A stretch of 64,000 bases of DNA from a virus (IMGVR_UViG_3300020463_000001:1-64000), one strand, 5' to 3'; shown: positions 5,893 through 22,630, counted from the stretch's first letter. Notes: generated by a model from the sequence alone, not told the origin. Translations and numbers: made by a program.

Positions 5893-6108
5893 ATGCAAAA
5901 AAAATCTAAGATAATTCGCATCTCAGAATTTAATGCAGAAAAACGGAAAGATAAAGAACTTATTTATTATAATGAACAATTATCCAAACTGAATTTACGA
6001 CTATCTATAATTATGTCAGAGATAAAACTGACCAAAGAAATCATTGATATGATAGAAAATGAAAAACTGATGGACTTTGCAAAGAGACTCAATCAAGATA
6101 CTGAATAG
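5893..6108 (+). CDS. Hypothetical coiled-coil protein
   Basis: AGGAG RBS; 71 aa; converges on the cyclase stop. Confidence 0.7.
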   Translation: MQKKSKIIRISEFNAEKRKDKELIYYNEQLSKLNLRLSIIMSEIKLTKEIIDMIENEKLMDFAKRLNQDTE

Positions 6109-7919
6109 ATTCTGATTGGTTCTTCTTTGCCTTTAACCTTTATTGTGCCTATAGATTTCTTATTGTAAGTATCTGGTAGTTGCGAAACTGTGTATTCAGA
6201 CACTATAGTTTTATAATCTATATAATCCCCCCGAGCGGCAGTGGACTCAAGCCGTGCGGCGAGGTTGACTGCATCTCCAATAACCGAATAGTCAAATCTG
6301 GATTCACTGCCCATGTTACCGACAATACAATCACCGGAGTTAATACCAGTACCAACACTAATGTCAGGCAAATTGCGCTCTTTGTAGATTCTTTTAAGTT
6401 CATTTACTTCTTTTTCTATTTCTATTGATGATTTGACTGCAAGTTCCGCATGGTTCTCACACGGCAATGGCGCATTCCAAAAGGCCATTATACAGTCTCC
6501 CATATATTTATCTATCGTTCCACCGTTGTCTAGGATAATGTTGGACATTTTATTTAGAAATTCGTTGACCAACTCCACTAATCCTTCGGGGTCATCATTG
6601 TTTTTATAATGTTCAGATATGGGCGTAAATCCACATATATCCATAAAGAGGAAAGTCATCTCCTTTCTCTCCCCTCCCAGTTTAAGCAACTCTGGATTCT
6701 TCTGTAAAAGTGCAACTTGTCTTGGGTCAAGGTATGTCTCAAATTGTTTCTTAATTTGTTGACGCAACTTAAACTGACGATAGAATTCAATAAACGCAGT
6801 ATGACCAAATATTAGTATTCCTCCTAAGAGTATCATCACTGGACTGAATAACATATAGTGGGCATTGAATAGATACCCAGAACCTATTACGGATCCAGTA
6901 GACAATAAAAGGAACACCATACCACTCAACCACATAGGAGTTTTACGCAATAGAAGGACAAATAAACCTCCCAATAGAACCATTGTAAGCAGTTCTAAGA
7001 ACGCGAAATAGTCTGGTCTAGTAATGACAGTGTTCTTTACAATCGTCTCTATGAGGTTCGCTTGTACCTCATGAGGGAACATTCCACCCACTGGAGTACT
7101 AATAATATTAGAACCAGCGAATGTCGGCCCTATAATAACAATACTACCTTCTGGTATCCATAGATTTCCCAGATCCGATATAGATGCCCTCTGAAACTTA
7201 TTCCAGTAGGAGTTATACACCGCACCGTTGTCTGATGTGGTGATGGGTTTATAGGCAGGAATTCTCACCCATTCTATTCCTGTTTCCGTTGTCTTTATCT
7301 GGAAAGAAATATCTCCCACTGCTACTCTTATAGTTTCTAATGCAAATGATGGAAATATCTCTCCATGAGCTCCGACAATGATTGGAACCTCTCTCACTAC
7401 ACCATCAATAGATGGTTCTGCAGTTAACGCACCAAATCCATTAATGAATTGTGCAAGTTCCGGAATAGGGGTAAGAATCCCTTTGTAATCTTTAACGAAA
7501 TCTATTGCATCTCTGGGGCCTAGTGTAGTTGTCCCGATATGCATTTGTGGTTCGAATTCATAATCATCAATAACCTGTGTCGCAACGACTATCGGTTTCC
7601 TTACAAATGCCTCTGCGAGGAATATATCAGAGTTTCCTCTTCCTCGTTCTGAGAGAAGTACATTGAGTGCGATGAGAGTATTGTCTGGTAGTTTGTTGAT
7701 TTCTTTTGCAAGGACATCACGATCCCATGGCCATCTACCATTCTTCTTTATAGATTTCTCATCTATGTCTAATAGAATAATTTGTTCTGACTTATTCTCT
7801 TCATGGTTTCTCTGGAGTAAGTCAAAGTAGTTTAGTTGTGTTGCTTCTAAGATGTATGGATTGAGAACTTTAACCAGTATACATAATAAAAAAGTAATTC
7901 CAATATGGTATAATTTCAT
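6093..7919 (-). CDS. CHASE2-domain membrane class III adenylate cyclase
   Basis: N-terminal TM; CHASE2 motifs (LLDIDEKSI..GRWPWDR, DGVVREVP, P.GG...HEVQAN); 3 TMs; catalytic FMDICGFT, IDKYMGD, GINSG..IVGNMGS, DYSVIGDAVNLAARLE. Confidence 0.93.
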   Translation of the reverse strand: MKLYHIGITFLLCILVKVLNPYILEATQLNYFDLLQRNHEENKSEQIILLDIDEKSIKKNGRWPWDRDVLAKEINKLPDNTLIALNVLLSERGRGNSDIFLAEAFVRKPIVVATQVIDDYEFEPQMHIGTTTLGPRDAIDFVKDYKGILTPIPELAQFINGFGALTAEPSIDGVVREVPIIVGAHGEIFPSFALETIRVAVGDISFQIKTTETGIEWVRIPAYKPITTSDNGAVYNSYWNKFQRASISDLGNLWIPEGSIVIIGPTFAGSNIISTPVGGMFPHEVQANLIETIVKNTVITRPDYFAFLELLTMVLLGGLFVLLLRKTPMWLSGMVFLLLSTGSVIGSGYLFNAHYMLFSPVMILLGGILIFGHTAFIEFYRQFKLRQQIKKQFETYLDPRQVALLQKNPELLKLGGERKEMTFLFMDICGFTPISEHYKNNDDPEGLVELVNEFLNKMSNIILDNGGTIDKYMGDCIMAFWNAPLPCENHAELAVKSSIEIEKEVNELKRIYKERNLPDISVGTGINSGDCIVGNMGSESRFDYSVIGDAVNLAARLESTAARGDYIDYKTIVSEYTVSQLPDTYNKKSIGTIKVKGKEEPIRIYSVS

Positions 7920-15473: not shown

Positions 15474-16100
15474 ATGAAAATCTCAACAAAACTTGTTGTG
15501 CTATTTGGATTGTTATTCGGTTCAGTATCCGCCAACGCAGTGGAAATGTCCACAACAATCGGACTTGGGTCTGATTACTTCTGGAGAGGCGTATCCCAAA
15601 ACTCAGGTAACCCAGCATTAAGTGGTGGCACAGAAATCTCTCAAGGAGGATTCTATGTCGGCGTGTGGGGTAGTCAAGTTGATTTTGGTGACGATGCGTC
15701 ATATGAATACGATCTATACGGCGGATATGGAGTTTCTTTAACAGAAGAAATATCTGTAGGCGTAGGAATGGTTCGATATATGTATGACCATAGTTACGAT
15801 GCGGCTGAGGAAGTTTTTGTAACTGGCTCGTACAGATCACTTGATGTTGAATATTACAGAAATCGTGATCGTTCACTGTCGGATTTGGACTACTTTTCAG
15901 TAAGTACAGTCTTGCCTGGCATTTCTGTGGTAGATGTATCAGTACAATATGGACAATTTGGAGATGGCACAGACCATAAAGGAGTTACATTATCTAAGTC
16001 TTTGACTGATAAGGTTGATGTATCTCTCTTGGTAAGATCTACAGTTAGATCTGACCAATTCTGGGATGACGCCGCAGTGAGTATCTCGTATACTTTCTAA
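15474..16100 (+). CDS. TorF/TIGR02001 (gcw_chp)-family putative outer-membrane porin
   Basis: Signal peptide; SDYFWRGVSQ, PALSGG, GFYVGVWGS.VDF, EYDLYGGY; C-terminal YTF. Confidence 0.85.
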   Translation: MKISTKLVVLFGLLFGSVSANAVEMSTTIGLGSDYFWRGVSQNSGNPALSGGTEISQGGFYVGVWGSQVDFGDDASYEYDLYGGYGVSLTEEISVGVGMVRYMYDHSYDAAEEVFVTGSYRSLDVEYYRNRDRSLSDLDYFSVSTVLPGISVVDVSVQYGQFGDGTDHKGVTLSKSLTDKVDVSLLVRSTVRSDQFWDDAAVSISYTF

Positions 16101-16110
16101 AATATGATTT

Positions 16111-16148
16111 TATGTTTGTGGGCCTTCGGGCCCATAAACATATTTTTA
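16111..16148 (+). terminator. Rho-independent terminator with cUUCGg tetraloop
   Basis: tatgtttgtgggcc-ttcg-ggcccataaacata followed by a T tract. Confidence 0.85.
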
Positions 16149-16159
16149 TAAGGTAGATA

Positions 16160-16390
16160 ATGATAGAAAAGAAACGCAATAGATGGGTTTACACCGATGA
16201 AACTACTGGTGCAAGATTTCGACTGTCAAAAGAAGAACTGCATAATCATTCAATAGCATTAAGACCTTCTCACATATATATAGTAGAGAATCCTAATAAG
16301 ATTCCTACATCAGAGCTCAAAGAACAACTCATAGAAAGTTGGTTTGGTTCTGAGAATGAAATGTATAAGAAGGTGAAAAATGAAAAGTAA
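16160..16390 (+). CDS. Hypothetical protein
   Basis: ORF track; AGGT RBS. Confidence 0.6.
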   Translation: MIEKKRNRWVYTDETTGARFRLSKEELHNHSIALRPSHIYIVENPNKIPTSELKEQLIESWFGSENEMYKKVKNEK

Positions 16391-16943
16391 AGTTATTCAC
16401 GATCCGATATTCGATACGCAAATGATTTGCGATTATTATACAGAGAAAGATGGTGCAAAGGTAATGTATGTTTGTACTACAGACTTCTCTGTTCCTAATG
16501 TTCCAGTGGATGTATTCTATCGAAGGAGAAAGGTTAAAGGCCTTTCAAGATATTTTGGTTTGTTTATTAATCCAGAAACCGAAGGATTGATGGTCACAGA
16601 CCTAGATGATCTCATGGACTTTGAAATCCCTATGGTCAAGGATGACGAAGGCGATTACAGATATTCGCGTCAAGAATCAGATAATAAAGAATTCAGAAAT
16701 GGTAATTTTGTCGCTGGTGGCAGAATTACTACAAGATGGGGCCCAAGGGGCATCATATGTAATGTGGAAAAGGGTAAATTCTCACTGATAAAGTTCCCCG
16801 ATCAAGATGAAGAGCACAATGATTGTGGAACAGATGATTGTTGTGGTGAATGTGTGGATGATGTCCTAGATAATCTTGCCGCATCTAGAAGTGAACCAGA
16901 AGAAATAGTATCTGTTGCCTCCCTTGCAACTGACGCAAAGTAA
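16380..16943 (+). CDS. Hypothetical protein with C-terminal HxxCxxxxCCxxC Cys cluster
   Basis: HNDCGTDDCCGEC near the C-terminus. Confidence 0.7.
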   Translation: MKSKVIHDPIFDTQMICDYYTEKDGAKVMYVCTTDFSVPNVPVDVFYRRRKVKGLSRYFGLFINPETEGLMVTDLDDLMDFEIPMVKDDEGDYRYSRQESDNKEFRNGNFVAGGRITTRWGPRGIICNVEKGKFSLIKFPDQDEEHNDCGTDDCCGECVDDVLDNLAASRSEPEEIVSVASLATDAK

Positions 16944-17164
16944 TGTTGGTGTTGATACAAGTAGTAATACAAGCAATTATGTTTGGAGTACATGAATTAT
17001 GGAAGGGATTGACATTAACTGGATCGGCATTCTTGTATTTGCTGGGACTAGTATTGGCTCTATTATTTTTATCTTTTTTGCTACCTTTCTCCTTGTTGAA
17101 AGAAAAAATCCACTGGACTATTTTAGAAAAAAGGATGTTAAGAAGGTAAACTCTGGAGCCAAAT

Positions 17165-17449
17165 TTGGATAATAAACGGCTGAAACAAAAAATCAATAGA
17201 TTCAAGAGAGATATGGAGAATCATTCCAAGGAATTAATGGATCGATCTGAAGACTGGTGGCAAAATGCATCAGATGAGGAACGAGAAGATGCATTTCTTG
17301 CAGTCATGTCCAGATTGTATGATGGTGCGATAGTAGATAAAAAGTCTATATCCGATACATTGTCTGATATATTTGAGTTTGATTATCATATGGAAGTTTT
17401 TTGTATGGTATGTGGATTCGATGAATTATATGAAAAAATGGAGAATTGA
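17165..17449 (+). CDS. Hypothetical protein
   Basis: ORF track; GGAG RBS. Confidence 0.6.
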   Translation: MDNKRLKQKINRFKRDMENHSKELMDRSEDWWQNASDEEREDAFLAVMSRLYDGAIVDKKSISDTLSDIFEFDYHMEVFCMVCGFDELYEKMEN

Positions 17450-17658
17450 TTATGTTATTATCTGAATATTTTAGTGATGAAACTAATTCTAGTGGAAATC
17501 GTCTGCGAACAGCAGAAGTAAAAAAGAACATAAATGGTTATTACATCGATTGTTATGAGAATGGACATAAGGTTCTTTCTAGTAAATTGTATGAACACTC
17601 CGAATCATATGCAGAAGATGCCGCGGAAAATTGGGTATTAGGAATACTCAAGTTATGA
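17446..17658 (+). CDS. Hypothetical protein of a type common in T4-like phages (YAEDAAENWVLG)
   Basis: Recognisable C-terminal motif. Confidence 0.65.
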   Translation: MIMLLSEYFSDETNSSGNRLRTAEVKKNINGYYIDCYENGHKVLSSKLYEHSESYAEDAAENWVLGILKL

Positions 17659-17852
17659 GAGCTGTAATATTCCTTTTATTATTTGGATTATTATTTGTAG
17701 CAGTATCTGGTTGCGCGACGAATGATCCTTCAGTATCTGAAGTTCTAACAGAAACCAAAACGAAACGACAATCAGAAGTCAATTGTCCAAGAGGAACCAT
17801 TAAGGCCTGCATTGGGCCACCAAGAGAATGCGCCTGTTATAAGAGAGACTAA
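17655..17852 (+). CDS. Small Cys-rich lipoprotein
   Basis: VSGC lipobox; start moved to ATG 17655. Confidence 0.6.
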   Translation: MRAVIFLLLFGLLFVAVSGCATNDPSVSEVLTETKTKRQSEVNCPRGTIKACIGPPRECACYKRD

Positions 17853-18043
17853 TGAAACTAAAAGATATCACAAATATTTTATGGGGCAAAAAAACAACGC
17901 AGGAAGAAGATGATAAATCTCTTTCAATAGACAACGCATATAAAACCAGATGGGTATGGTATCATACAATCCTAGGCATAGAATTATTGATAGTAATTTT
18001 AGTGCAATTATCAATTCTTGTCCTTCTTGCGGTCAAGTTATAG
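17852..18043 (+). CDS. Small membrane protein
   Basis: C-terminal TM. Confidence 0.6.
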   Translation: MKLKDITNILWGKKTTQEEDDKSLSIDNAYKTRWVWYHTILGIELLIVILVQLSILVLLAVKL

Positions 18044-18066
18044 TTAAGTTTTAGACCATAAAAAGT

Positions 18067-18095
18067 TGGACAACGCACCTAAATAGTGTTATAAT
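18067..18095 (+). promoter_or_regulatory. sigma70-type promoter upstream of the respiratory module
   Basis: TGGACA-17-TATAAT. Confidence 0.6.
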
Positions 18096-18107
18096 ATTGG
18101 ACATAAT

Positions 18108-18227
18108 ATGGAATTTCCCGAAGATATACATTTAAGAAAGATGGAAAAATCTCTCGCTAAAATTGAGAGAATGATTTGGGGATTGTATATTATTATACCG
18201 TTGTTCTATTTTGCTAGTACATTATAG
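18108..18227 (+). CDS. 39-aa membrane peptide
   Basis: Hand-translated MEFPEDIHLRKMEKSLAKIERMIWGLYIIIPLFYFASTL. Confidence 0.5.
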   Translation: MEFPEDIHLRKMEKSLAKIERMIWGLYIIIPLFYFASTL

Positions 18228-18259
18228 TTCCAATAATTAATTTGTAGGAATATAAAGAA

Positions 18260-18622
18260 ATGAAAAATGCATTAATTTGGTTTTATTACTCTTGGGATAG
18301 TATTATGAATCTAAAATATAATCCCATAAGCTATATCAGAGATGTAAGTCTCCAGATGTACTTCATGATTGCTCTGTCTCTTTTATGGACACTGACTTTC
18401 TGTGGATTAATTGCTGGGTGGGCCAATGTGATACCACTGGTGTATGGTCACGTTGGATTTGTCTTCGCGATATTTATGACATATGGAGTGTTTAAAGACG
18501 CTGAGAGAGATAGACCAAACTGGTTTGAGAAATGGAACACCGAATATCTTGCGGATCGTGCATTTAAGAACAGAGACAAAACCAAAAACTCTTGTCAGTG
18601 GAATTTGGAGATCGAAGCATAA
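18260..18622 (+). CDS. Hypothetical membrane protein with 2-3 TMs and a TM histidine
   Basis: WDSIMNLKYNPI motif; hydrophobic segments; YGHVG. Confidence 0.7.
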   Translation: MKNALIWFYYSWDSIMNLKYNPISYIRDVSLQMYFMIALSLLWTLTFCGLIAGWANVIPLVYGHVGFVFAIFMTYGVFKDAERDRPNWFEKWNTEYLADRAFKNRDKTKNSCQWNLEIEA

Positions 18623-18624
18623 GA

Positions 18625-18632
18625 TATAAATA
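18625..18632 (+). promoter_or_regulatory. T4 late promoter TATAAATA upstream of sufT-sdhB-aox
   Basis: Exact consensus. Confidence 0.65.
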
Positions 18633-18661
18633 ATTATAATTTCTTATAAGAGGATATTATA

Positions 18662-18907
18662 ATGGAAAAACTGTCTTATTGGTGGAATTTTAGGGAAGGC
18701 AAAGAGTCAACAATTGTAATTATTATGTCTTTTGTGATCGGGAGTGTTGGTTTTCTTTTAGCAAGCCAACCAGAAGAACCAAAAGATCCAGACATTTGTA
18801 CATCTTTTTGTATTAGAGACATAAACGATGTTCCCAGACATCCGCATTTTTTCGAAGATAATCCAGATCTAATGCCCGAAAAGTTGAAAAAAGAACTTAG
18901 AGGTTAA
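18662..18907 (+). CDS. Small membrane protein
   Basis: One TM; GAGG RBS. Confidence 0.6.
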   Translation: MEKLSYWWNFREGKESTIVIIMSFVIGSVGFLLASQPEEPKDPDICTSFCIRDINDVPRHPHFFEDNPDLMPEKLKKELRG

Positions 18908-19240
18908 ATGGAAACTATATCTCGACCAGAGATACAAGAATCTGATATCGTTGCCTGTATGAAAATGGTTTACGATCCTGAGATTCCTGTCAACATTTAT
19001 GATCTTGGTCTTATATACGAAATAAACATATTCCAAGTAGCATCAGCGGTACATATAGTAATGACTCTGACTAGTGCTGGTTGTCCGGTTGCAGGAGAAA
19101 TGCCAGAATGGGTTAAGAGTGCAGCATTAATGGCTCATGGAGTGGAAAAGGTAGACGTAGAATTAGTATTCGATCCGCCTTGGGATCTTACCATGATGTC
19201 AGATGAAGCAAAATTAGAACTAAACGTATACGGTTATTAA
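18908..19240 (+). CDS. sufT: SufT/PaaD (DUF59) Fe-S cluster maturation protein
   Basis: VYDPEIPVNIYDLGLIYEI, MTLTSAGCPVAG, VELVFDPPW...MSDEAKLEL. Confidence 0.9.
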   Translation: METISRPEIQESDIVACMKMVYDPEIPVNIYDLGLIYEINIFQVASAVHIVMTLTSAGCPVAGEMPEWVKSAALMAHGVEKVDVELVFDPPWDLTMMSDEAKLELNVYGY

Positions 19241-19959
19241 TGAAAGTAAGTTTATACAGATACAATCCAGACATAGACGAAGTTCCGTATATGGAAGATT
19301 TTGAGTTTGCTCGCCCAGAGAAAGATATATTTGTACTTGATCTTTTGCATACGTTAAAGGAACGTGACTCTACTATAACCTATAGAAGAAGTTGCAGGGA
19401 AGGTGTGTGCGGTTCTGATGGTCTAAACATGAATGGCAAGAACGGACTTGCCTGTATAACTCCTCTGTCACAAGTAGTAAAGCGGAATAAACTGGTATTA
19501 AGACCATTGCCGGGCTTACCTGTTATCCGTGATCTTGTGATAGACATGACACAATTTTACGAGCAATATGAAAAAGTTACACCCTACCTCATCAACAAAG
19601 AACCGCCTCCAGAGAAGGAGAGATTACAATCACCAGAAGATAGAGAAAAGCTGGACGGACTCTATGAGTGTATATTGTGCGCTTGTTGTTCTACAAGCTG
19701 TCCTTCTTTTTGGTGGAATCCAGATAAATTCATCGGCCCAGCAGGATTACTCGCAAGTTATCGATTCCTCGCTGACACTAGAGATACAGCGACAGATCAA
19801 AGATTAGACGCACTAGATGATCCATTTAGTGTATTTCGATGTAGAGGTATTATGAATTGTGTCAGTGTCTGTCCTAAAGGACTTAATCCAACCAGAGCAA
19901 TCGGAAAGATTCGTTCTATGTTAATATCTAGGCCAAAACGAAAAACAGTAAATGAATAA
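19240..19959 (+). CDS. sdhB: Succinate dehydrogenase iron-sulfur subunit
   Basis: RRSCREGVCGSDG, PLPGLPVIRDLVIDM, ECILCACCSTSCPSFWWN, FRCRGIMNCVSVCPKGLNP; proteobacterial (gamma-like) type. Confidence 0.97.
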   Translation: MKVSLYRYNPDIDEVPYMEDFEFARPEKDIFVLDLLHTLKERDSTITYRRSCREGVCGSDGLNMNGKNGLACITPLSQVVKRNKLVLRPLPGLPVIRDLVIDMTQFYEQYEKVTPYLINKEPPPEKERLQSPEDREKLDGLYECILCACCSTSCPSFWWNPDKFIGPAGLLASYRFLADTRDTATDQRLDALDDPFSVFRCRGIMNCVSVCPKGLNPTRAIGKIRSMLISRPKRKTVNE

Positions 19960-20530
19960 AATATCAAATTGGGTCGCAATGTCAATGACTAGGTTCTTTC
20001 GCCTTGTCGCAGACACCTTTTTTGCGAAAAGATATGGTCATAGGGCAGTAGTTTTAGAGACAATTGCGGGTGTGCCGGGCATGGTTGCCGGAATGTGGGT
20101 TCATTTACGCAGTTTGCGACAAATGAAGACCGGATATGGGCCTATGATAAGAGAACTTCTTGCAGAGGCCGAGAATGAAAGAATGCATTTGATGTTCTTC
20201 GTTGAGATAACTAAACCAAATCTATTTGAGAGACTCTTAGTGTTGCTCGCTCAGGGGTCATTCTGGATGTTTTATTTTGTTCTATATGTGATCTTTCCCA
20301 AGACTGCACATAAAATGATACACTATTTTGAGGAAGAGGCAGTAAAGAGTTATACGGAATACCTAAAAATGGTAGAATCTGGAGAAGTAGAGAATATCCC
20401 AGCACCAGAAATCGCAATTGAGTACTATGGAATGGATTCCGATGCAAAATTATCAGATCTCATCATCAATGTAAGAGCAGATGAGGCAAAACACAGCGAA
20501 GTGAACCTAAGATATGCAGAAACCGACTGA
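19952..20530 (+). CDS. aox: Alternative oxidase (ubiquinol oxidase, di-iron)
   Basis: LETIAGVPGMV, EAENERMHL, FEEEAVKSYT, RADEAKH. Confidence 0.95.
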   Translation: MNKISNWVAMSMTRFFRLVADTFFAKRYGHRAVVLETIAGVPGMVAGMWVHLRSLRQMKTGYGPMIRELLAEAENERMHLMFFVEITKPNLFERLLVLLAQGSFWMFYFVLYVIFPKTAHKMIHYFEEEAVKSYTEYLKMVESGEVENIPAPEIAIEYYGMDSDAKLSDLIINVRADEAKHSEVNLRYAETD

Positions 20531-20696
20531 AACAGCCGACCAAGAACGAATAAAAGAGTGGCATGAAGAAGACTATTGGATGAAAATGGACTTTAGTCCT
20601 ACATGGATCTTTATTCTTCCAAGCATTATGTTAATCTCTGTTCTGGGTATCGCATTGTTCATAGGAAGTGTGCTAATCGCCTCCGCAACATCATAA
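20514..20696 (+). CDS. Small membrane protein
   Basis: C-terminal TM; overlaps the aox stop. Confidence 0.5.
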   Translation: MQKPTETADQERIKEWHEEDYWMKMDFSPTWIFILPSIMLISVLGIALFIGSVLIASATS

Positions 20697-20710
20697 AAAA
20701 AGCAAAATCA

Positions 20711-20739
20711 TTGACAAATGTTTCCTAAAAGACTATAAT
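20711..20739 (+). promoter_or_regulatory. sigma70-type early promoter
   Basis: TTGACA-17-TATAAT perfect. Confidence 0.85.
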
Positions 20740-20765
20740 ATAGGGATATTTTTTTAGGAAATATT

Positions 20766-21419
20766 ATGAAAAATGAACTGAAGTATCGTACAGTTGACGG
20801 AGAACCGGAATTGGTTAATAAACCGGCCGGAGTAGATTCATTAATGAATGGTTTACTTTCTCCTTTTAAGGAAATTGCACCAACAATAACCAACTCTTGG
20901 TGGTCTCGGTCGAGCGGAATGACGAAATATAGTTGGAATAGTATTACATCAATACAGGGACGGATCGTTGAAAAATTTTTCAACGATCTCCTACAAGAAG
21001 CCGGCGTCTGTCTGAAATATAAACTCAAGGACAAAAAACACGGCGGTTCCATTAGAATTAAGAATGGCGAGGTGAAACAAGTTGATATCTTGTTCAAGTC
21101 TAAACGAGGTAAAGTAATTTATCATGAATGCAAACTCAATCTTGATCTTGACTCTGGGAAGAGAAAAAAGTCTAACGAAACAATTATGGCAATAACAGAG
21201 GAATTGAAACCTGATCTTAGTGGTTATTTTGTGCCACTCACCCGAGCTGAAATTCAAAAAGCCGGATGGTTCAATAGTTATAAGAAGCAAGGAATTGTTG
21301 TTTATCCTATAGAATGGTTGATAGATCAATTCGATTGCCCATTCACTCTAAACGATTGGTGTGATTTTTGGAAGACTGATGAAGCTACGGAACTCTCCAA
21401 ATCTTGGGGATATCGTTGA
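20766..21419 (+). CDS. Putative type II restriction endonuclease (PD-(D/E)xK)
   Basis: E...VDILF...ECK pattern; overlaps the MTase gene. Confidence 0.55.
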   Translation: MKNELKYRTVDGEPELVNKPAGVDSLMNGLLSPFKEIAPTITNSWWSRSSGMTKYSWNSITSIQGRIVEKFFNDLLQEAGVCLKYKLKDKKHGGSIRIKNGEVKQVDILFKSKRGKVIYHECKLNLDLDSGKRKKSNETIMAITEELKPDLSGYFVPLTRAEIQKAGWFNSYKKQGIVVYPIEWLIDQFDCPFTLNDWCDFWKTDEATELSKSWGYR

Positions 21420-22237
21420 AACCAGTAGTTAAGTATCAGGGCGGAAAGGGAAGGGAATTACTCAGTATCAAGAAAAGAATGCCTTCTATTTTTGATGGTT
21501 TCAATATAGATAGAGTTGTTGAACCGTTTTGCGGTGGCGCAGCGTTATCTTTTGATCAAGAAAGACCAGCAATTTTGAATGATGTCAATCATCAAGTCAT
21601 TAACTTATATAAAGTGATTGCAGATAGACAACAGTATTCTCAACTGAAATCTCAAATAGATCAATATAAAGAGTATGATCATGATAAGTTGTCGGATTTA
21701 TTTTATCGATCCAGAGATATTATCAATCAACAAAAGACAGAAAACGGTTGTCTAGAAAAGGCAATCGCATATATTATAGTAAGACAACTCTGTTTTTCTG
21801 GAATGGAAAGATATAATTCTCTGGGCGAATTCAATGTTCCGTTTGGTCATTATAAAAAACTAACGTGCAATTTGTCTGACGGGCATCATAAATTCCTACA
21901 AAGATGTGATATAAGAGAGGGATCTTTTGTTGATGTATTTGAAGAATTAGCAGAAGAAGATTTTGTGTTCATCGATCCGCCTTATCTTGATCGACTTGGC
22001 TACATAACTGGTGATGGTGGCGACAGGCTGCATGAAGATTTGTTGGAGTGTTGTAAGAATACTAAATCAAATTGGATGATTGTTCATTCGGATCATGAGT
22101 TTTATCGAGACTCATACAAAGATTTTAATATAATTTGCGAAGATTTCTCGTATAGTCAAATATTTGGGAAAAATAGAGATCATTCTAATGCCAAAGTCAA
22201 GCATCTCTACATAACTAATTATTCTGTAACAATTTGA
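21404..22237 (+). CDS. N6-adenine DNA methyltransferase (Dam/D12 class)
   Basis: KYQGGK, EPFCGGAA (motif I), ILND.N, YNSLGEFNVPFG, FIDPPY (motif IV). Confidence 0.92.
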   Translation: MGISLKPVVKYQGGKGRELLSIKKRMPSIFDGFNIDRVVEPFCGGAALSFDQERPAILNDVNHQVINLYKVIADRQQYSQLKSQIDQYKEYDHDKLSDLFYRSRDIINQQKTENGCLEKAIAYIIVRQLCFSGMERYNSLGEFNVPFGHYKKLTCNLSDGHHKFLQRCDIREGSFVDVFEELAEEDFVFIDPPYLDRLGYITGDGGDRLHEDLLECCKNTKSNWMIVHSDHEFYRDSYKDFNIICEDFSYSQIFGKNRDHSNAKVKHLYITNYSVTI

Positions 22238-22241
22238 TACA
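22225..22241. promoter_or_regulatory. Palindromic operator-like site TGTAACA-att-TGATACA
   Basis: Matches 26634-26650; 19 bp upstream of a -35. Confidence 0.5.
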
Positions 22242-22260
22242 AAATAATTGTAAAAAAATG

Positions 22261-22289
22261 TTGACAAGTCCCTTATAATCCCCTATACT
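22261..22289 (+). promoter_or_regulatory. sigma70-type early promoter
   Basis: TTGACA-17-TATACT. Confidence 0.8.
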
Positions 22290-22318
22290 ATAAGAGAATC
22301 AAAAAACAAGAGATAAAT

Positions 22319-22630
22319 ATGGTAATAGGAGAAACAGAAGTCACCGTAACTGAGTCTGGTACTTACACTGGTGTTCCTTCAGAGCAAATCCGTCATGCCT
22401 TCTACGAGTATATGTACTTTGACCGCATTGGACACATCCGCCAACGCAAGTGCAAGTTAGTTCCTCACGCAGAGTGGCTCGCTGACTTTGTGACCGAAGG
22501 TCTGATTGACGGCATGACCGCCGAGATCTCTCTCAATGCGCTAGAATCAGAACGCAACCCTGCTGTCCGTCGATACGCAGAAGTGTCCGGAATGTTTGAA
22601 GAGCCCGTTAGACTGTCTTTGGTAGTTTAA
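22319..22630 (+). CDS. Hypothetical early protein
   Basis: ORF track. Confidence 0.65.
   Translation: MVIGETEVTVTESGTYTGVPSEQIRHAFYEYMYFDRIGHIRQRKCKLVPHAEWLADFVTEGLIDGMTAEISLNALESERNPAVRRYAEVSGMFEEPVRLSLVV

What the first reader, a model, noticed from the sequence alone, without database searches (positions are those of the whole stretch)
18108..20696. Phage respiratory module: sufT-sdhB-alternative oxidase flanked by small membrane proteins
Seen: adjacent or overlapping full-length SufT, SdhB (all three Fe-S motifs) and AOX (all di-iron ligands), with four small TM ORFs around them, one carrying a TM His. Both an early-type and a late promoter lie upstream. No sdhA/C/D is in the window. Established: SDH feeds the quinone pool, AOX drains it to O2 without proton pumping, and SufT matures Fe-S proteins. 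Inference: a succinate-quinone-O2 bypass that keeps TCA flux and redox balance going during infection. It may work by replacing the damage-prone Fe-S subunit, a heterotroph analogue of cyanophage psbA. I know of no characterised phage sdhB.
Basis: partly seen in the sequence, partly recalled or inferred. Interest (0 to 1): 0.87.

Follow-up and report, generated by a model that had tools for sequence, protein, structure and literature searches.

The report
Phage-borne complex II subunit plus alternative oxidase
A complete 200-kb marine T4-like phage carries a tightly packed operon for an iron-sulfur maturation factor, the iron-sulfur subunit of succinate dehydrogenase and an alternative oxidase, and related searches show that phages of marine Gammaproteobacteria have captured this one respiratory subunit at least six separate times, which points to viral control of host respiration.

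Summary
At 18108-20696 (+) lie tm39, tm120, tm81, a DUF59/SufT-like gene, a full-length SdhB, a full-length AOX and tm60. The last five genes abut or overlap. The genome is a complete T4-like phage (200,733 bp, terminal repeats, Gp23 capsid). It has no sdhA, sdhC or sdhD anywhere.

It is not a chimera. Independent assemblies, including a virome contig, show the same synteny, and sdhB has the phage's own codon composition. dN/dS is 0.05-0.09 for sdhB and aox.

New here:
- Stand-alone sdhB sits in 30 IMG/VR contigs and phage C48C1, never beside sdhA/C/D. All 84 cellular homologues lie in sdhCDAB.
- The viral genes fall in at least six places among gammaproteobacterial SdhB.
- DUF59-SdhB also occurs behind a T5-like DNA polymerase, so the pair moves between phage families.
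- AOX is common in marine phage contigs, usually without sdhB, yet the two became linked at least two or three times.

Most likely, phage SdhB supplements host complex II and AOX re-oxidises ubiquinol. This function is inferred, not shown.

Papers I could search mention viral sdhB only as virome reads.

The parts
17631..17852 (+). 73-aa lipoprotein (lipobox VSGC, four further conserved Cys). A companion of the cassette.
   Evidence: Hydrophobic signal 11-29. A 59-64% homologue lies between sdhB and tm60 in the T5-like contigs L165 and L166. Invariant VLTETKTKRQS and C52, C60, C67, C69.
17852..18043 (+). 63-aa single-pass membrane protein (tm63)
   Evidence: TM 43-61. dN/dS 0-0.06 against L003/L004.
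18067..18095 (+). Sigma70-like (early-type) promoter candidate: TGGACA-17-TATAAT with extended -10 TG
   Evidence: 11 of 12 consensus matches. -35 hexamer identical and -10 hexamer TATAAT/TACAAT in L003/L004. Function inferred.
18108..18227 (+). 39-aa ORF with hydrophobic C-terminal tail (tm39). Coding status uncertain.
   Evidence: Conserved at 90-92% in L003/L004. dN/dS 0.43-0.65 on few changes.
18260..18622 (+). 120-aa two-TM protein with invariant His64 (tm120), a member of a family with mostly viral look-alike clusters
   Evidence: TM 35-53 and 55-78. 324 representatives found by profile search. Among the held loci it occurs only near sdhB, in five sub-lineages. dN/dS 0.08-0.19.
18625..18632 (+). 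T4-type late promoter motif TATAAATA, 30 nt before tm81
   Evidence: The spacer 18600-18670 is 100% identical in three genomes whose flanking genes have dS up to 0.95. Function inferred.
18662..18907 (+). 81-aa single-pass membrane protein (tm81)
   Evidence: TM 16-34. 89-98% identity in L003/L004. dN/dS 0.24-0.51 on few changes.
18908..19240 (+). DUF59 / short SufT-like Fe-S assembly protein (110 aa)
   Evidence: PF01883 4.8e-16; TIGR02945 133 bits, below its cut-off of 143. dN = 0 against L003/L004. Nearest cellular relatives are named 'SUF system Fe-S cluster assembly protein', at 60-68% identity.
19240..19959 (+). SdhB, the iron-sulfur subunit of succinate:quinone oxidoreductase (239 aa)
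   Evidence: NF004616 355 bits. 1NEK_B 5e-117. All ligands invariant. dN/dS 0.05-0.07. Sister to a cellular sdhCDAB clade at 82% identity.
19952..20530 (+). Alternative oxidase, a di-iron ubiquinol oxidase (192 aa)
   Evidence: PF01786 1.3e-70. TAO 3VV9 1.5e-37, with the TAO motifs that hold the di-iron ligands (my knowledge) conserved. dN/dS 0.07-0.09.
20514..20696 (+). 60-aa single-pass membrane protein (tm60). A companion of the DUF59-SdhB cassette.
   Evidence: TM 32-50. 62-66% homologues follow sdhB in the T5-like contigs L165, L166 and L168. Invariant W16, EDYW, F27, P29, WIFI. dN/dS 0.11-0.19.
20711..20739 (+). Perfect sigma70-like promoter that starts the next unit (orf217 plus Dam methylase). 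Marks the 3' boundary of the module.
   Evidence: 12 of 12 matches. A virome contig lacks 20620-22223 but keeps the module.

Best explanation
This is a genuine auxiliary metabolic operon of a lytic T4-like marine phage. The probable host is an uncultured marine gammaproteobacterium.

Proposed mechanism:
1. The phage makes its own SdhB, a copy descended from a gammaproteobacterial sdhB, probably of the host's lineage.
2. The DUF59/SufT-type factor encoded one nucleotide upstream helps load SdhB with its three Fe-S clusters.
3. The loaded SdhB joins host SdhA and SdhC/D. This keeps or raises succinate:ubiquinone reductase activity after host gene expression stops.
4. The AOX, translated from the same message, oxidises ubiquinol with O2 without pumping protons. 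The quinone pool then stays oxidised, and the TCA cycle and other quinone-linked dehydrogenases keep running independently of the cytochrome branch and of respiratory control.

SdhB and AOX would be coupled only through the quinone pool.

Shown: gene identity, intact catalytic residues, phage residence, purifying selection, recurrent capture, and cassette mobility.

Inferred: assembly with host subunits, the role of DUF59, the direction of flux, and the benefit to the phage.
For: Phage residence:
- The genome is complete, with terminal repeats and a T4 capsid gene.
- Upstream synteny is the same in two IMG/VR contigs. Contigs of an independent seawater metagenome cover both flanks, and a 19-kb virome contig spans 16000-20620.
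- sdhB GC3 is 0.308, against a phage mean of 0.307. The nearest cellular sdhB genes have GC3 of 0.46-0.65.

Intact function:
- Fe-S ligands are invariant in all viral copies. Of 89 columns invariant in cells, 71 are also invariant in phages.
- The AOX motifs that hold the di-iron ligands in TAO (my knowledge) are conserved.
- dN/dS is 0 for DUF59, 0.05-0.07 for sdhB and 0.07-0.09 for aox.

Need for host partners:
- No sdhA/C/D is in the genome, nor beside any of 31 viral sdhB genes. All 84 cellular loci have sdhA directly upstream, with sdhC/D where the contig reaches.
- Viral sdhB is polyphyletic, with at least six placements. Each lies next to a different gammaproteobacterial group: an uncultured clade, SAR86, Halieaceae, Porticoccaceae and an Acinetobacter-like sequence.
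- The contigs checked by PHROGs, from the Porticoccaceae-, SAR86-, Halieaceae- and Acinetobacter-like placements, carry typical phage genes.

Linkage:
- tm81, DUF59, sdhB, aox and tm60 abut or overlap.
- DUF59-SdhB recurs with a 1-nt overlap behind a T5-like polymerase.
- sdhB-AOX adjacency or co-residence recurs in L024, L030 and C48C1, with different SdhB and AOX lineages.

Transcription: small metatranscriptome contigs cover 18522-18727 and 18866-19041. This is weak evidence.
Against: - There is no biochemical or infection data, and the host is not cultured.
- Most phage AOX loci lack sdhB within 8 kb.
- Four large sdhB phage contigs lack AOX and DUF59 in the DNA held. The pairing is therefore optional.
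- Nothing shows that SdhB is the limiting or short-lived subunit of bacterial complex II.
- AOX was not found in the five genomes nearest by SdhB. AOX may therefore add a new route and not support a host one.
- The metatranscriptome contigs could come from DNA carry-over.
Confidence: 0.6

Rival explanations
1. The genes are neighbours but functionally independent. AOX would be a general redox, ROS or low-iron safety valve, as PTOX is in cyanophages. DUF59-SdhB would serve complex II separately. Their adjacency would only reflect insertion into the same hypervariable region.
For: - 24 of 26 IMG/VR AOX loci, plus two pairs of AOX contigs from assemblies (L120-L123), have no sdhB within 5-8 kb.
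- The window's AOX nests in a 21-member viral clade whose other members lack sdhB nearby.
- The T5-like cassette has DUF59-SdhB without AOX.
- sdhB contigs G006-G009 have no AOX in the DNA held.
Against: - sdhB and aox overlap by 8 nt, and aox and tm60 by 17 nt.
- The pairing arose at least two or three times with unrelated alleles: the window lineage, L024 with C48C1, and L030.
- Both enzymes act on the same quinone pool (established biochemistry).
Confidence: 0.2
2. Phage SdhB is a takeover tool. It would displace host SdhB or trap SdhA or SdhCD, to block or redirect succinate oxidation and not to sustain it.
For: Only one subunit is carried. Its match to one host lineage after another fits a decoy as well as it fits a working subunit.
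Against: - All cluster ligands, and the Trp and Ile positions that I recall as quinone-site residues (my knowledge), are invariant in all viral copies.
- dN/dS is 0.05-0.07.
- A dedicated Fe-S maturation factor is co-translated.
- Pairing with a quinol oxidase makes sense only if electrons reach quinone.
Confidence: 0.06
3. Phage SdhB works in a new phage-specified membrane assembly with the small membrane proteins (tm60, the Cys-rich lipoprotein, tm120 with its invariant TM His) and possibly AOX. It would not simply occupy the host SdhCD anchor.
For: - tm60 and the lipoprotein accompany DUF59-SdhB in two unrelated phage backbones.
- Among the held loci, tm120-family genes occur only near sdhB, in five sub-lineages.
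- These small genes are under purifying selection.
Against: - tm120 shows no similarity to SdhC or SdhD (hhalign probability below 1%).
- L171 has DUF59-SdhB without tm60 or the lipoprotein.
- A weak tm120 relative exists in Melnitz phages, which lack sdhB.
- The SdhB C-terminal domain is 91% identical to the nearest cellular SdhB. By the E. coli structure this is the domain that docks on SdhC/D (my knowledge).
Confidence: 0.08
4. The finding is an assembly chimera or host DNA contamination.
For: Several 'phage' database records with sdhB are really bacterial chromosome, for example Acinetobacter phage MD-2021a with gltA-sdhCDAB-sucAB.
Against: - The genome is complete, with terminal repeats.
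- Three independent assemblies and a virome contig share the synteny.
- Codon composition matches the phage.
- No sdhA/C/D flanks the gene.
Confidence: 0.01

Closest known systems
Cyanophage psbA/psbD (photosystem II core subunits carried by T4-like and T7-like cyanophages)
   Same: The phage encodes a single host-derived core subunit of a multi-subunit membrane redox complex and relies on the host for the rest. The gene was acquired repeatedly from hosts. (Established knowledge.)
   Different: The complex here is respiratory complex II in heterotrophs. SdhB is not known to turn over fast as D1 does. The gene comes with its own cofactor-maturation factor.
Cyanophage PTOX (plastoquinol terminal oxidase, PHROG 4235)
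   Same: Both are di-iron quinol oxidases of the AOX superfamily carried by marine T4-like phages. PTOX is thought to act as an electron safety valve.
   Different: The match to the PTOX PHROG is only 8e-4, against 1.3e-70 to Pfam AOX and 1.5e-37 to mitochondrial AOX. tblastn finds no cyanophage copy at 1e-5. The substrate would be ubiquinol in a heterotroph.
Giant-virus succinate dehydrogenase (PkV-RF01, co-PelV; PMC12338748)
   Same: Virus-encoded complex II genes, proposed to sustain energy supply during infection.
   Different: Those eukaryotic viruses carry all four subunits. The phages here carry SdhB alone, in every lineage examined.
E. coli-type SdhB in sdhCDAB (PDB 1NEK chain B)
   Same: The alignment is end to end at 5e-117, with identical cluster ligands including the Asp ligand of the 2Fe-2S cluster.
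   Different: The gene stands alone in phage genomes and has a short basic C-terminal extension. Arg replaces E. coli His207, but this is shared with Pseudomonas and Marinobacter and is not phage-specific.
Bacterial AOX (Novosphingobium aromaticivorans, Vibrio fischeri; cited in PMC12801897)
   Same: A compact AOX of about 190-200 aa without the long eukaryotic N-terminal arm. A cellular marine homologue has 74% identity.
   Different: It is phage-encoded and belongs to a clade that circulates among marine phage contigs.
Short SufT / SUF-associated DUF59 proteins (TIGR02945) and phage Fe-S assembly AMGs
   Same: A DUF59-only protein of about 110 aa with the T-x-x-x-C-P motif, 60-68% identical to proteins named 'SUF system Fe-S cluster assembly protein'. 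Phage C48C1 carries a NifU-like gene 2 kb from its sdhB.
   Different: It scores just under the NCBIfam cut-off and has no PHROG match. Here it is translationally coupled to one specific client protein.

Membership tests
SdhB (succinate dehydrogenase/fumarate reductase iron-sulfur subunit) | N-terminal 2Fe-2S domain plus C-terminal dicluster domain, scoring above curated family cut-offs | tested here: met
   PF13085 2.4e-28 and PF13534 9e-10. NF004616 355 bits (cut-off 228) and TIGR00384 273 bits (cut-off 88).
SdhB (succinate dehydrogenase/fumarate reductase iron-sulfur subunit) | All ligands of the 2Fe-2S, 4Fe-4S and 3Fe-4S clusters | tested here: met
   All 11 positions are present and invariant in 32 viral and 85 cellular sequences. 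The alignment to 1NEK_B agrees.
SdhB (succinate dehydrogenase/fumarate reductase iron-sulfur subunit) | Encoded with, and assembled with, SdhA and the membrane anchor subunits | tested here: not met
   No PF00890 or PF01127 match in the complete genome. No sdhA/C/D lies near any viral sdhB. Assembly with host subunits cannot be tested with these tools.
Alternative oxidase (AOX, PF01786) | Family profile match over the whole four-helix-bundle core | tested here: met
   PF01786 1.3e-70, covering positions 17-215 of 216.
Alternative oxidase (AOX, PF01786) | Di-iron ligands (four Glu, two His) and the conserved Tyr | tested here: met
   LETIAG, ENERMH, EEEAV..Y and RADEAKH align with the TAO motifs. 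The ligand numbering is from my own knowledge.
Alternative oxidase (AOX, PF01786) | Cyanide-insensitive ubiquinol oxidase activity | not testable with these tools
   Needs expression and respirometry.
Cyanophage PTOX (PHROG 4235) | Significant match to the PTOX family profile | tested here: inconclusive
   E = 8.3e-4 and 20 bits only. No cyanophage hit by tblastn. I do not file it as PTOX.
SufT / SUF-associated DUF59 protein (TIGR02945) | DUF59 domain above the Pfam cut-off | tested here: met
   PF01883 59 bits, cut-off 23.5.
SufT / SUF-associated DUF59 protein (TIGR02945) | Score above the NCBIfam equivalog cut-off | tested here: not met
   133.1 bits against 143.4. I therefore call it 'SufT-like'. 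The nearest named relatives are SUF system Fe-S cluster assembly proteins.
SufT / SUF-associated DUF59 protein (TIGR02945) | Location in a suf operon | tested here: not met
   It lies before sdhB in phage genomes.
Phage auxiliary metabolic gene (AMG) | A host-type metabolic gene inside a bona fide phage genome, flanked by phage genes | tested here: met
   Gp23 capsid, terminal repeats, 100% completeness. Phage neighbours. Present in a virome contig.
Phage auxiliary metabolic gene (AMG) | Expressed during infection and altering host metabolism | tested here: inconclusive
   Only short metatranscriptome contigs at 95-99% identity. DNA carry-over is not excluded.

The most novel reading that the evidence does not exclude
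The DUF59-SdhB cassette and its travelling small membrane proteins (tm60, the Cys-rich lipoprotein, and tm120 with an invariant TM His), together with AOX in this lineage, build a phage-specified respiratory assembly that host complex II does not form. For example, SdhA/SdhB could be tethered to a phage anchor, or directly to AOX, giving a minimal non-pumping succinate oxidase.
Probability: 0.1. Interest if true: 0.9.

Novelty: new variant of a known kind. Interest (0 to 1): 0.72.

Why it matters
Known phage takeovers of energy metabolism centre on photosynthesis (psbA, PTOX). For heterotrophic marine bacteria, which recycle most ocean carbon, no phage-encoded respiratory-chain subunit has been characterised in the papers I could search.

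The results here give four leads:
- Phages of several abundant gammaproteobacterial groups (SAR86-like, Porticoccaceae/SAR92-like, Halieaceae-like and others) have each captured sdhB alone.
- One lineage packaged it with an Fe-S maturation factor and moved the pair between T4-like and T5-like phages.
- AOX is widespread in the same virosphere.
- Together these suggest that SdhB is the limiting part of complex II in infected cells, and that viruses tune the respiration, and hence the carbon and oxygen fluxes, of heterotrophs.

The idea can be tested directly by complementation and respirometry with synthetic genes.

Tried and rejected
1. Arg at the position of E. coli SdhB His207 looked like a phage-specific change at the quinone site. 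It is shared by 58 of 85 cellular sequences, including Pseudomonas, Marinobacter and Halomonas. Dropped.
2. tm120 as a stand-in for SdhC or SdhD. hhalign probability is 0.2-0.6%. Rejected on sequence grounds.
3. AF2 model of tm120. pLDDT is 66 and the model is a plain helical hairpin. I ran no fold search, because a low-confidence two-helix model gives meaningless hits.
4. A locus scan with the tm120 alignment failed, as no stretch was conserved enough. Context look-ups of distant tm120 relatives returned only contigs of 1-2 kb.
5. I looked for AOX in the five GTDB genomes nearest by SdhB, to see whether the phage duplicates a host gene. None was found. The true host is unknown, so this remains a hint.
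6. Other 'phage' database hits for sdhB and DUF59 (Acinetobacter phage MD-2021a, Salmonella phage S.Kent, Listeria and Staphylococcus records) are, or appear to be, bacterial DNA filed as phage. I excluded them.
7. No NifU-like, peroxiredoxin or cytochrome c homologue of those seen near sdhB or AOX in other phages exists in this genome.
8. The pelagimyophage survey paper PMC7029224 does not mention succinate, AOX or Fe-S genes.
Full report
WHAT IS THERE

- The 110-aa protein is a DUF59 protein. PF01883 scores 4.8e-16. The SUF_assoc equivalog TIGR02945 gives 133 bits, just under its cut-off of 143.
- The 239-aa protein is a canonical SdhB. NF004616 scores 355 bits against a cut-off of 228. It aligns end to end with E. 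coli 1NEK_B at 5e-117.
- The 192-aa protein is an alternative oxidase. PF01786 scores 1.3e-70 and trypanosomal AOX 3VV9 scores 1.5e-37. The TAO motifs that hold the di-iron ligands and the conserved Tyr (ligand roles from my own knowledge) are conserved.
- The stop of tm81 abuts the DUF59 start (TAAATG). DUF59/sdhB overlap by 1 nt, sdhB/aox by 8 nt and aox/tm60 by 17 nt.
- A sigma70-like site (TGGACA-17-TATAAT with TG) lies at 18067-18095, before tm39 and tm120. A T4 late motif TATAAATA lies at 18625-18632, 30 nt before tm81. Both are kept in two related contigs. The 18600-18670 spacer is 100% identical, although neighbouring genes have dS up to 0.95.

IT IS A PHAGE, NOT A CHIMERA

- The window is the first 64 kb of a 200,733-bp virus record. 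The record has direct terminal repeats, a CheckV completeness of 100% and a T4-type major capsid gene (Gp23, 2e-142).
- Its relatives by other genes are Pelagibacter phage HTVC008M and the Melnitz methylophages.
- The whole genome has no SdhA (PF00890), SdhC/D (PF01127) or cytochrome c family member.
- Two IMG/VR contigs from other samples (L003 at 98.9 kb, L004 at 20 kb) carry the module from the porin gene to tm60 in the same order, at 84-100% protein identity apart from two variable small ORFs (57-60% in L003).
- Contigs of an independent 2025 seawater metagenome cover both flanks (16000-19529 and 20167-22500). A 19-kb contig from a viral-fraction metagenome covers 16000-20620 at about 93% identity, and it lacks the neighbouring restriction-modification pair.
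- sdhB has a GC3 of 0.308, equal to the phage mean of 0.307 +/- 0.054. The nearest cellular sdhB genes have GC3 of 0.46-0.65.
- dN/dS against L003/L004 is 0 for DUF59, 0.05-0.07 for sdhB, 0.07-0.09 for aox, 0.08-0.19 for tm120 and 0.11-0.19 for tm60. It is poorly determined for tm39 and tm81.

STAND-ALONE sdhB IS A RECURRENT PHAGE GENE

- A scan of IMG/VR found 30 contigs with SdhB at 62-95% identity. The isolate-style record Phage C48C1 (156 kb, circular, Kyanoviridae) has one at 72.5%, annotated 'hypothetical protein'.
- None of these 31 loci has sdhA, sdhC or sdhD within the flanks.
- All 84 cellular loci fetched with the same query have sdhA directly upstream, with sdhC/D where the contig reaches. 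This serves as a positive control for the detection.
- In a maximum-likelihood tree of 117 sequences the viral label needs at least six changes, and well-supported branches force all six. The six placements are:
  - the window clade, sister (100/94) to an uncultured marine gammaproteobacterium with a canonical gltA-sdhCDAB-sucAB locus (82% identity, about 48% GC);
  - two contigs with SAR86;
  - one contig with Halieaceae;
  - eleven contigs inside Porticoccaceae;
  - a 14-member all-viral clade that includes C48C1;
  - one contig with an Acinetobacter-like sequence.
- PHROG scans of contigs from the Porticoccaceae-, SAR86-, Halieaceae- and Acinetobacter-like placements find typical phage genes: major head protein, phage DNA polymerase, topoisomerase II large subunit and an exonuclease.
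- All 11 cluster ligands are invariant in the 32 viral copies. Of the 89 columns invariant in 85 cellular sequences, 71 are also invariant in the viral set.
- Repeated capture of sdhB alone is the strongest indirect argument that the phage protein works with host partner subunits. Each copy lies close to a different cell lineage.

THE MODULE IS A MOSAIC, AND ITS CORE IS DUF59-SdhB

- The nearest cellular relatives of the DUF59 protein are short 'SUF system Fe-S cluster assembly proteins', mostly of Rhodobacterales, at 60-68% identity. It is only 47-53% identical to the DUF59 domain of the long SufT-like proteins in the gammaproteobacterial genomes nearest by SdhB.
- The AOX nests (96% support) in a clade of 21 viral AOX genes whose other members have no sdhB within 8 kb. 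One of them lies beside nrdAB, a cytochrome c, glutaredoxin and RNase H.
- A cellular AOX has 74% identity. AOX was not found in the five GTDB genomes nearest by SdhB (the family search rings on C48C1).
- Tara contigs L165, L166, L168 and the 26-kb L171 carry DUF59 (80-84%) and SdhB (88%) with the same 1-nt overlap. There they sit directly behind a family-A DNA polymerase (PF00476, 1e-77; 47% to the polymerase of T5-like Vibrio phage VspSw_1). The surrounding replication module is T5-like: ligase, DnaB, primase and a weak T5 A2 hit. No AOX is present.
- In L165 and L166 a homologue of the window's lipoprotein (59-64%) and of tm60 (62-66%) follow sdhB. L168 has tm60 only and L171 has neither.
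- So DUF59-SdhB is a cassette that has moved between two unrelated phage backbones. tm60 and the lipoprotein are frequent companions. AOX lies between sdhB and tm60 only in the T4-like lineage.
- sdhB and AOX nevertheless came together at least two or three times with unrelated alleles: in the window lineage, in L024 and C48C1 (whose AOX genes are sisters), and in L030.
- Four other large sdhB contigs lack both AOX and DUF59 in the DNA held.

THE SMALL MEMBRANE PROTEINS

- tm120 has an N-terminal helix, two TM helices with an invariant His64, and a C-terminal helix.
- Its family has 324 representatives in the 1.8-billion-protein library and mostly viral clusters in the ESM Atlas.
- Among all loci held, an HMM finds it only near sdhB, in five sub-lineages. 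It finds none in the AOX-only loci.
- A weak relative exists in Melnitz phages, which have no sdhB.
- It shows no similarity to SdhC or SdhD.
- I treat the association as suggestive only.

HOW IT MOST LIKELY WORKS

Shown:
- A phage operon encodes an intact SdhB, a DUF59 Fe-S factor and an intact AOX.
- The genes are under purifying selection.
- No other complex II subunit is present.

From established biochemistry:
- SdhB relays electrons from the SdhA flavin to ubiquinone at the SdhB/C/D interface.
- AOX oxidises ubiquinol with O2 without proton pumping.
- DUF59/SufT proteins assist the maturation of Fe-S proteins.

Inferred:
- After infection, phage SdhB is loaded with clusters with the help of DUF59. 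It then joins host SdhA and SdhCD to maintain or raise succinate oxidation.
- AOX keeps the quinone pool oxidised. The TCA cycle and other quinone-dependent dehydrogenases can then run independently of the cytochrome branch, of respiratory control and, possibly, of iron supply.
- One speculative beneficiary is quinone-dependent dihydroorotate dehydrogenase, which supplies pyrimidines.
- I give this model 0.6.

Rivals:
- Functional independence of AOX and SdhB: 0.2.
- A new assembly with the small phage membrane proteins: 0.08.
- A decoy or takeover role: 0.06.
- Chimerism: 0.01.

COMPARISON WITH WHAT IS KNOWN

- The logic matches cyanophage psbA (one subunit for a host complex) and PTOX (a quinol oxidase valve). 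However, the PTOX profile matches only at 8e-4.
- Giant viruses of algae carry all four SDH subunits (PMC12338748). These phages carry only SdhB.
- In the papers I could search, viral sdhB appears only as virome reads. Roux et al. [quoted passage not shown] Hurwitz et al. 2013 list sdh among Pacific Ocean Virome genes (PMC4053976).
- An 'AOX' is annotated in one cyanomyovirus (PMC12801897).
- The pelagimyophage survey does not mention these genes.
- Earlier notes of this scan hold nothing similar on other DNA.

VERDICT

This is a new variant of the AMG theme with a clear, testable prediction. I score interest at 0.72.

Noticed in passing
L030:6691-8583: In this sdhB phage contig the AOX gene is preceded by a 79-aa copy of the AOX N-terminus and by a 314-aa HNH-type endonuclease gene on the opposite strand. 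This looks like a homing-endonuclease insertion with a partial target duplication.
   Followed up: partly
L024:256-582; L120:3264-3707: c-type cytochrome genes (CxxCH motif in L024; PF00034 in L120) are encoded by marine phage contigs close to sdhB/AOX (L024) or close to nrdAB and AOX (L120). This is a further sign of phage-borne respiratory genes.
   Followed up: no
window 20620-22223: A related virome contig replaces the orf217 (phrog_26553) plus Dam-methylase pair with 66 other letters. The putative restriction-modification unit next to the module is therefore an indel between close relatives.
   Followed up: no
L171:11839-12984; L032:3380-4555; L030:4112-5257: Serine hydroxymethyltransferase genes (63-69% identical to each other) lie within 2 kb of sdhB in three phage lineages: one T5-like, one in the all-viral clade (sub-clade E1 in my working labels) and L030.
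   Followed up: no
OQ984149.1 43111-43818 and 26249-26818 (L001, L150): Phage C48C1 carries sdhB and AOX, both annotated as 'hypothetical protein'. A NifU-like gene lies 2 kb upstream of its sdhB and a peroxiredoxin 5 kb downstream.
   Followed up: partly
CAKLQH020000002.1 233128-245802 (L002): The record named 'Acinetobacter phage MD-2021a' holds a plain bacterial gltA-sdhCDAB-sucAB-lpd locus. Several short 'Salmonella', 'Escherichia', 'Listeria' and 'Staphylococcus' phage records also look like host DNA. Hits in the phage collection need a context check.
   Followed up: partly
window 15474-16100: The phage encodes a 208-aa outer-membrane beta-barrel protein of the Gcw_chp family (PF09694, 2e-17). 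It is conserved at 84-96% in L003 and L004.
   Followed up: no
L025, L032 (IMG/VR contigs of 262 kb and 156 kb): sdhB of one all-viral sub-clade lies in contigs that CheckV rates 73% and 42% complete. These would be jumbo phages of roughly 360 kb.
   Followed up: no
window 6093-7919: The CHASE2-type adenylate/guanylate cyclase gene has 45% identity to the one in Pelagibacter phage HTVC008M and 35% to the one in the Melnitz phages. This helps place the phage among marine T4-like phages of heterotrophs.
   Followed up: no
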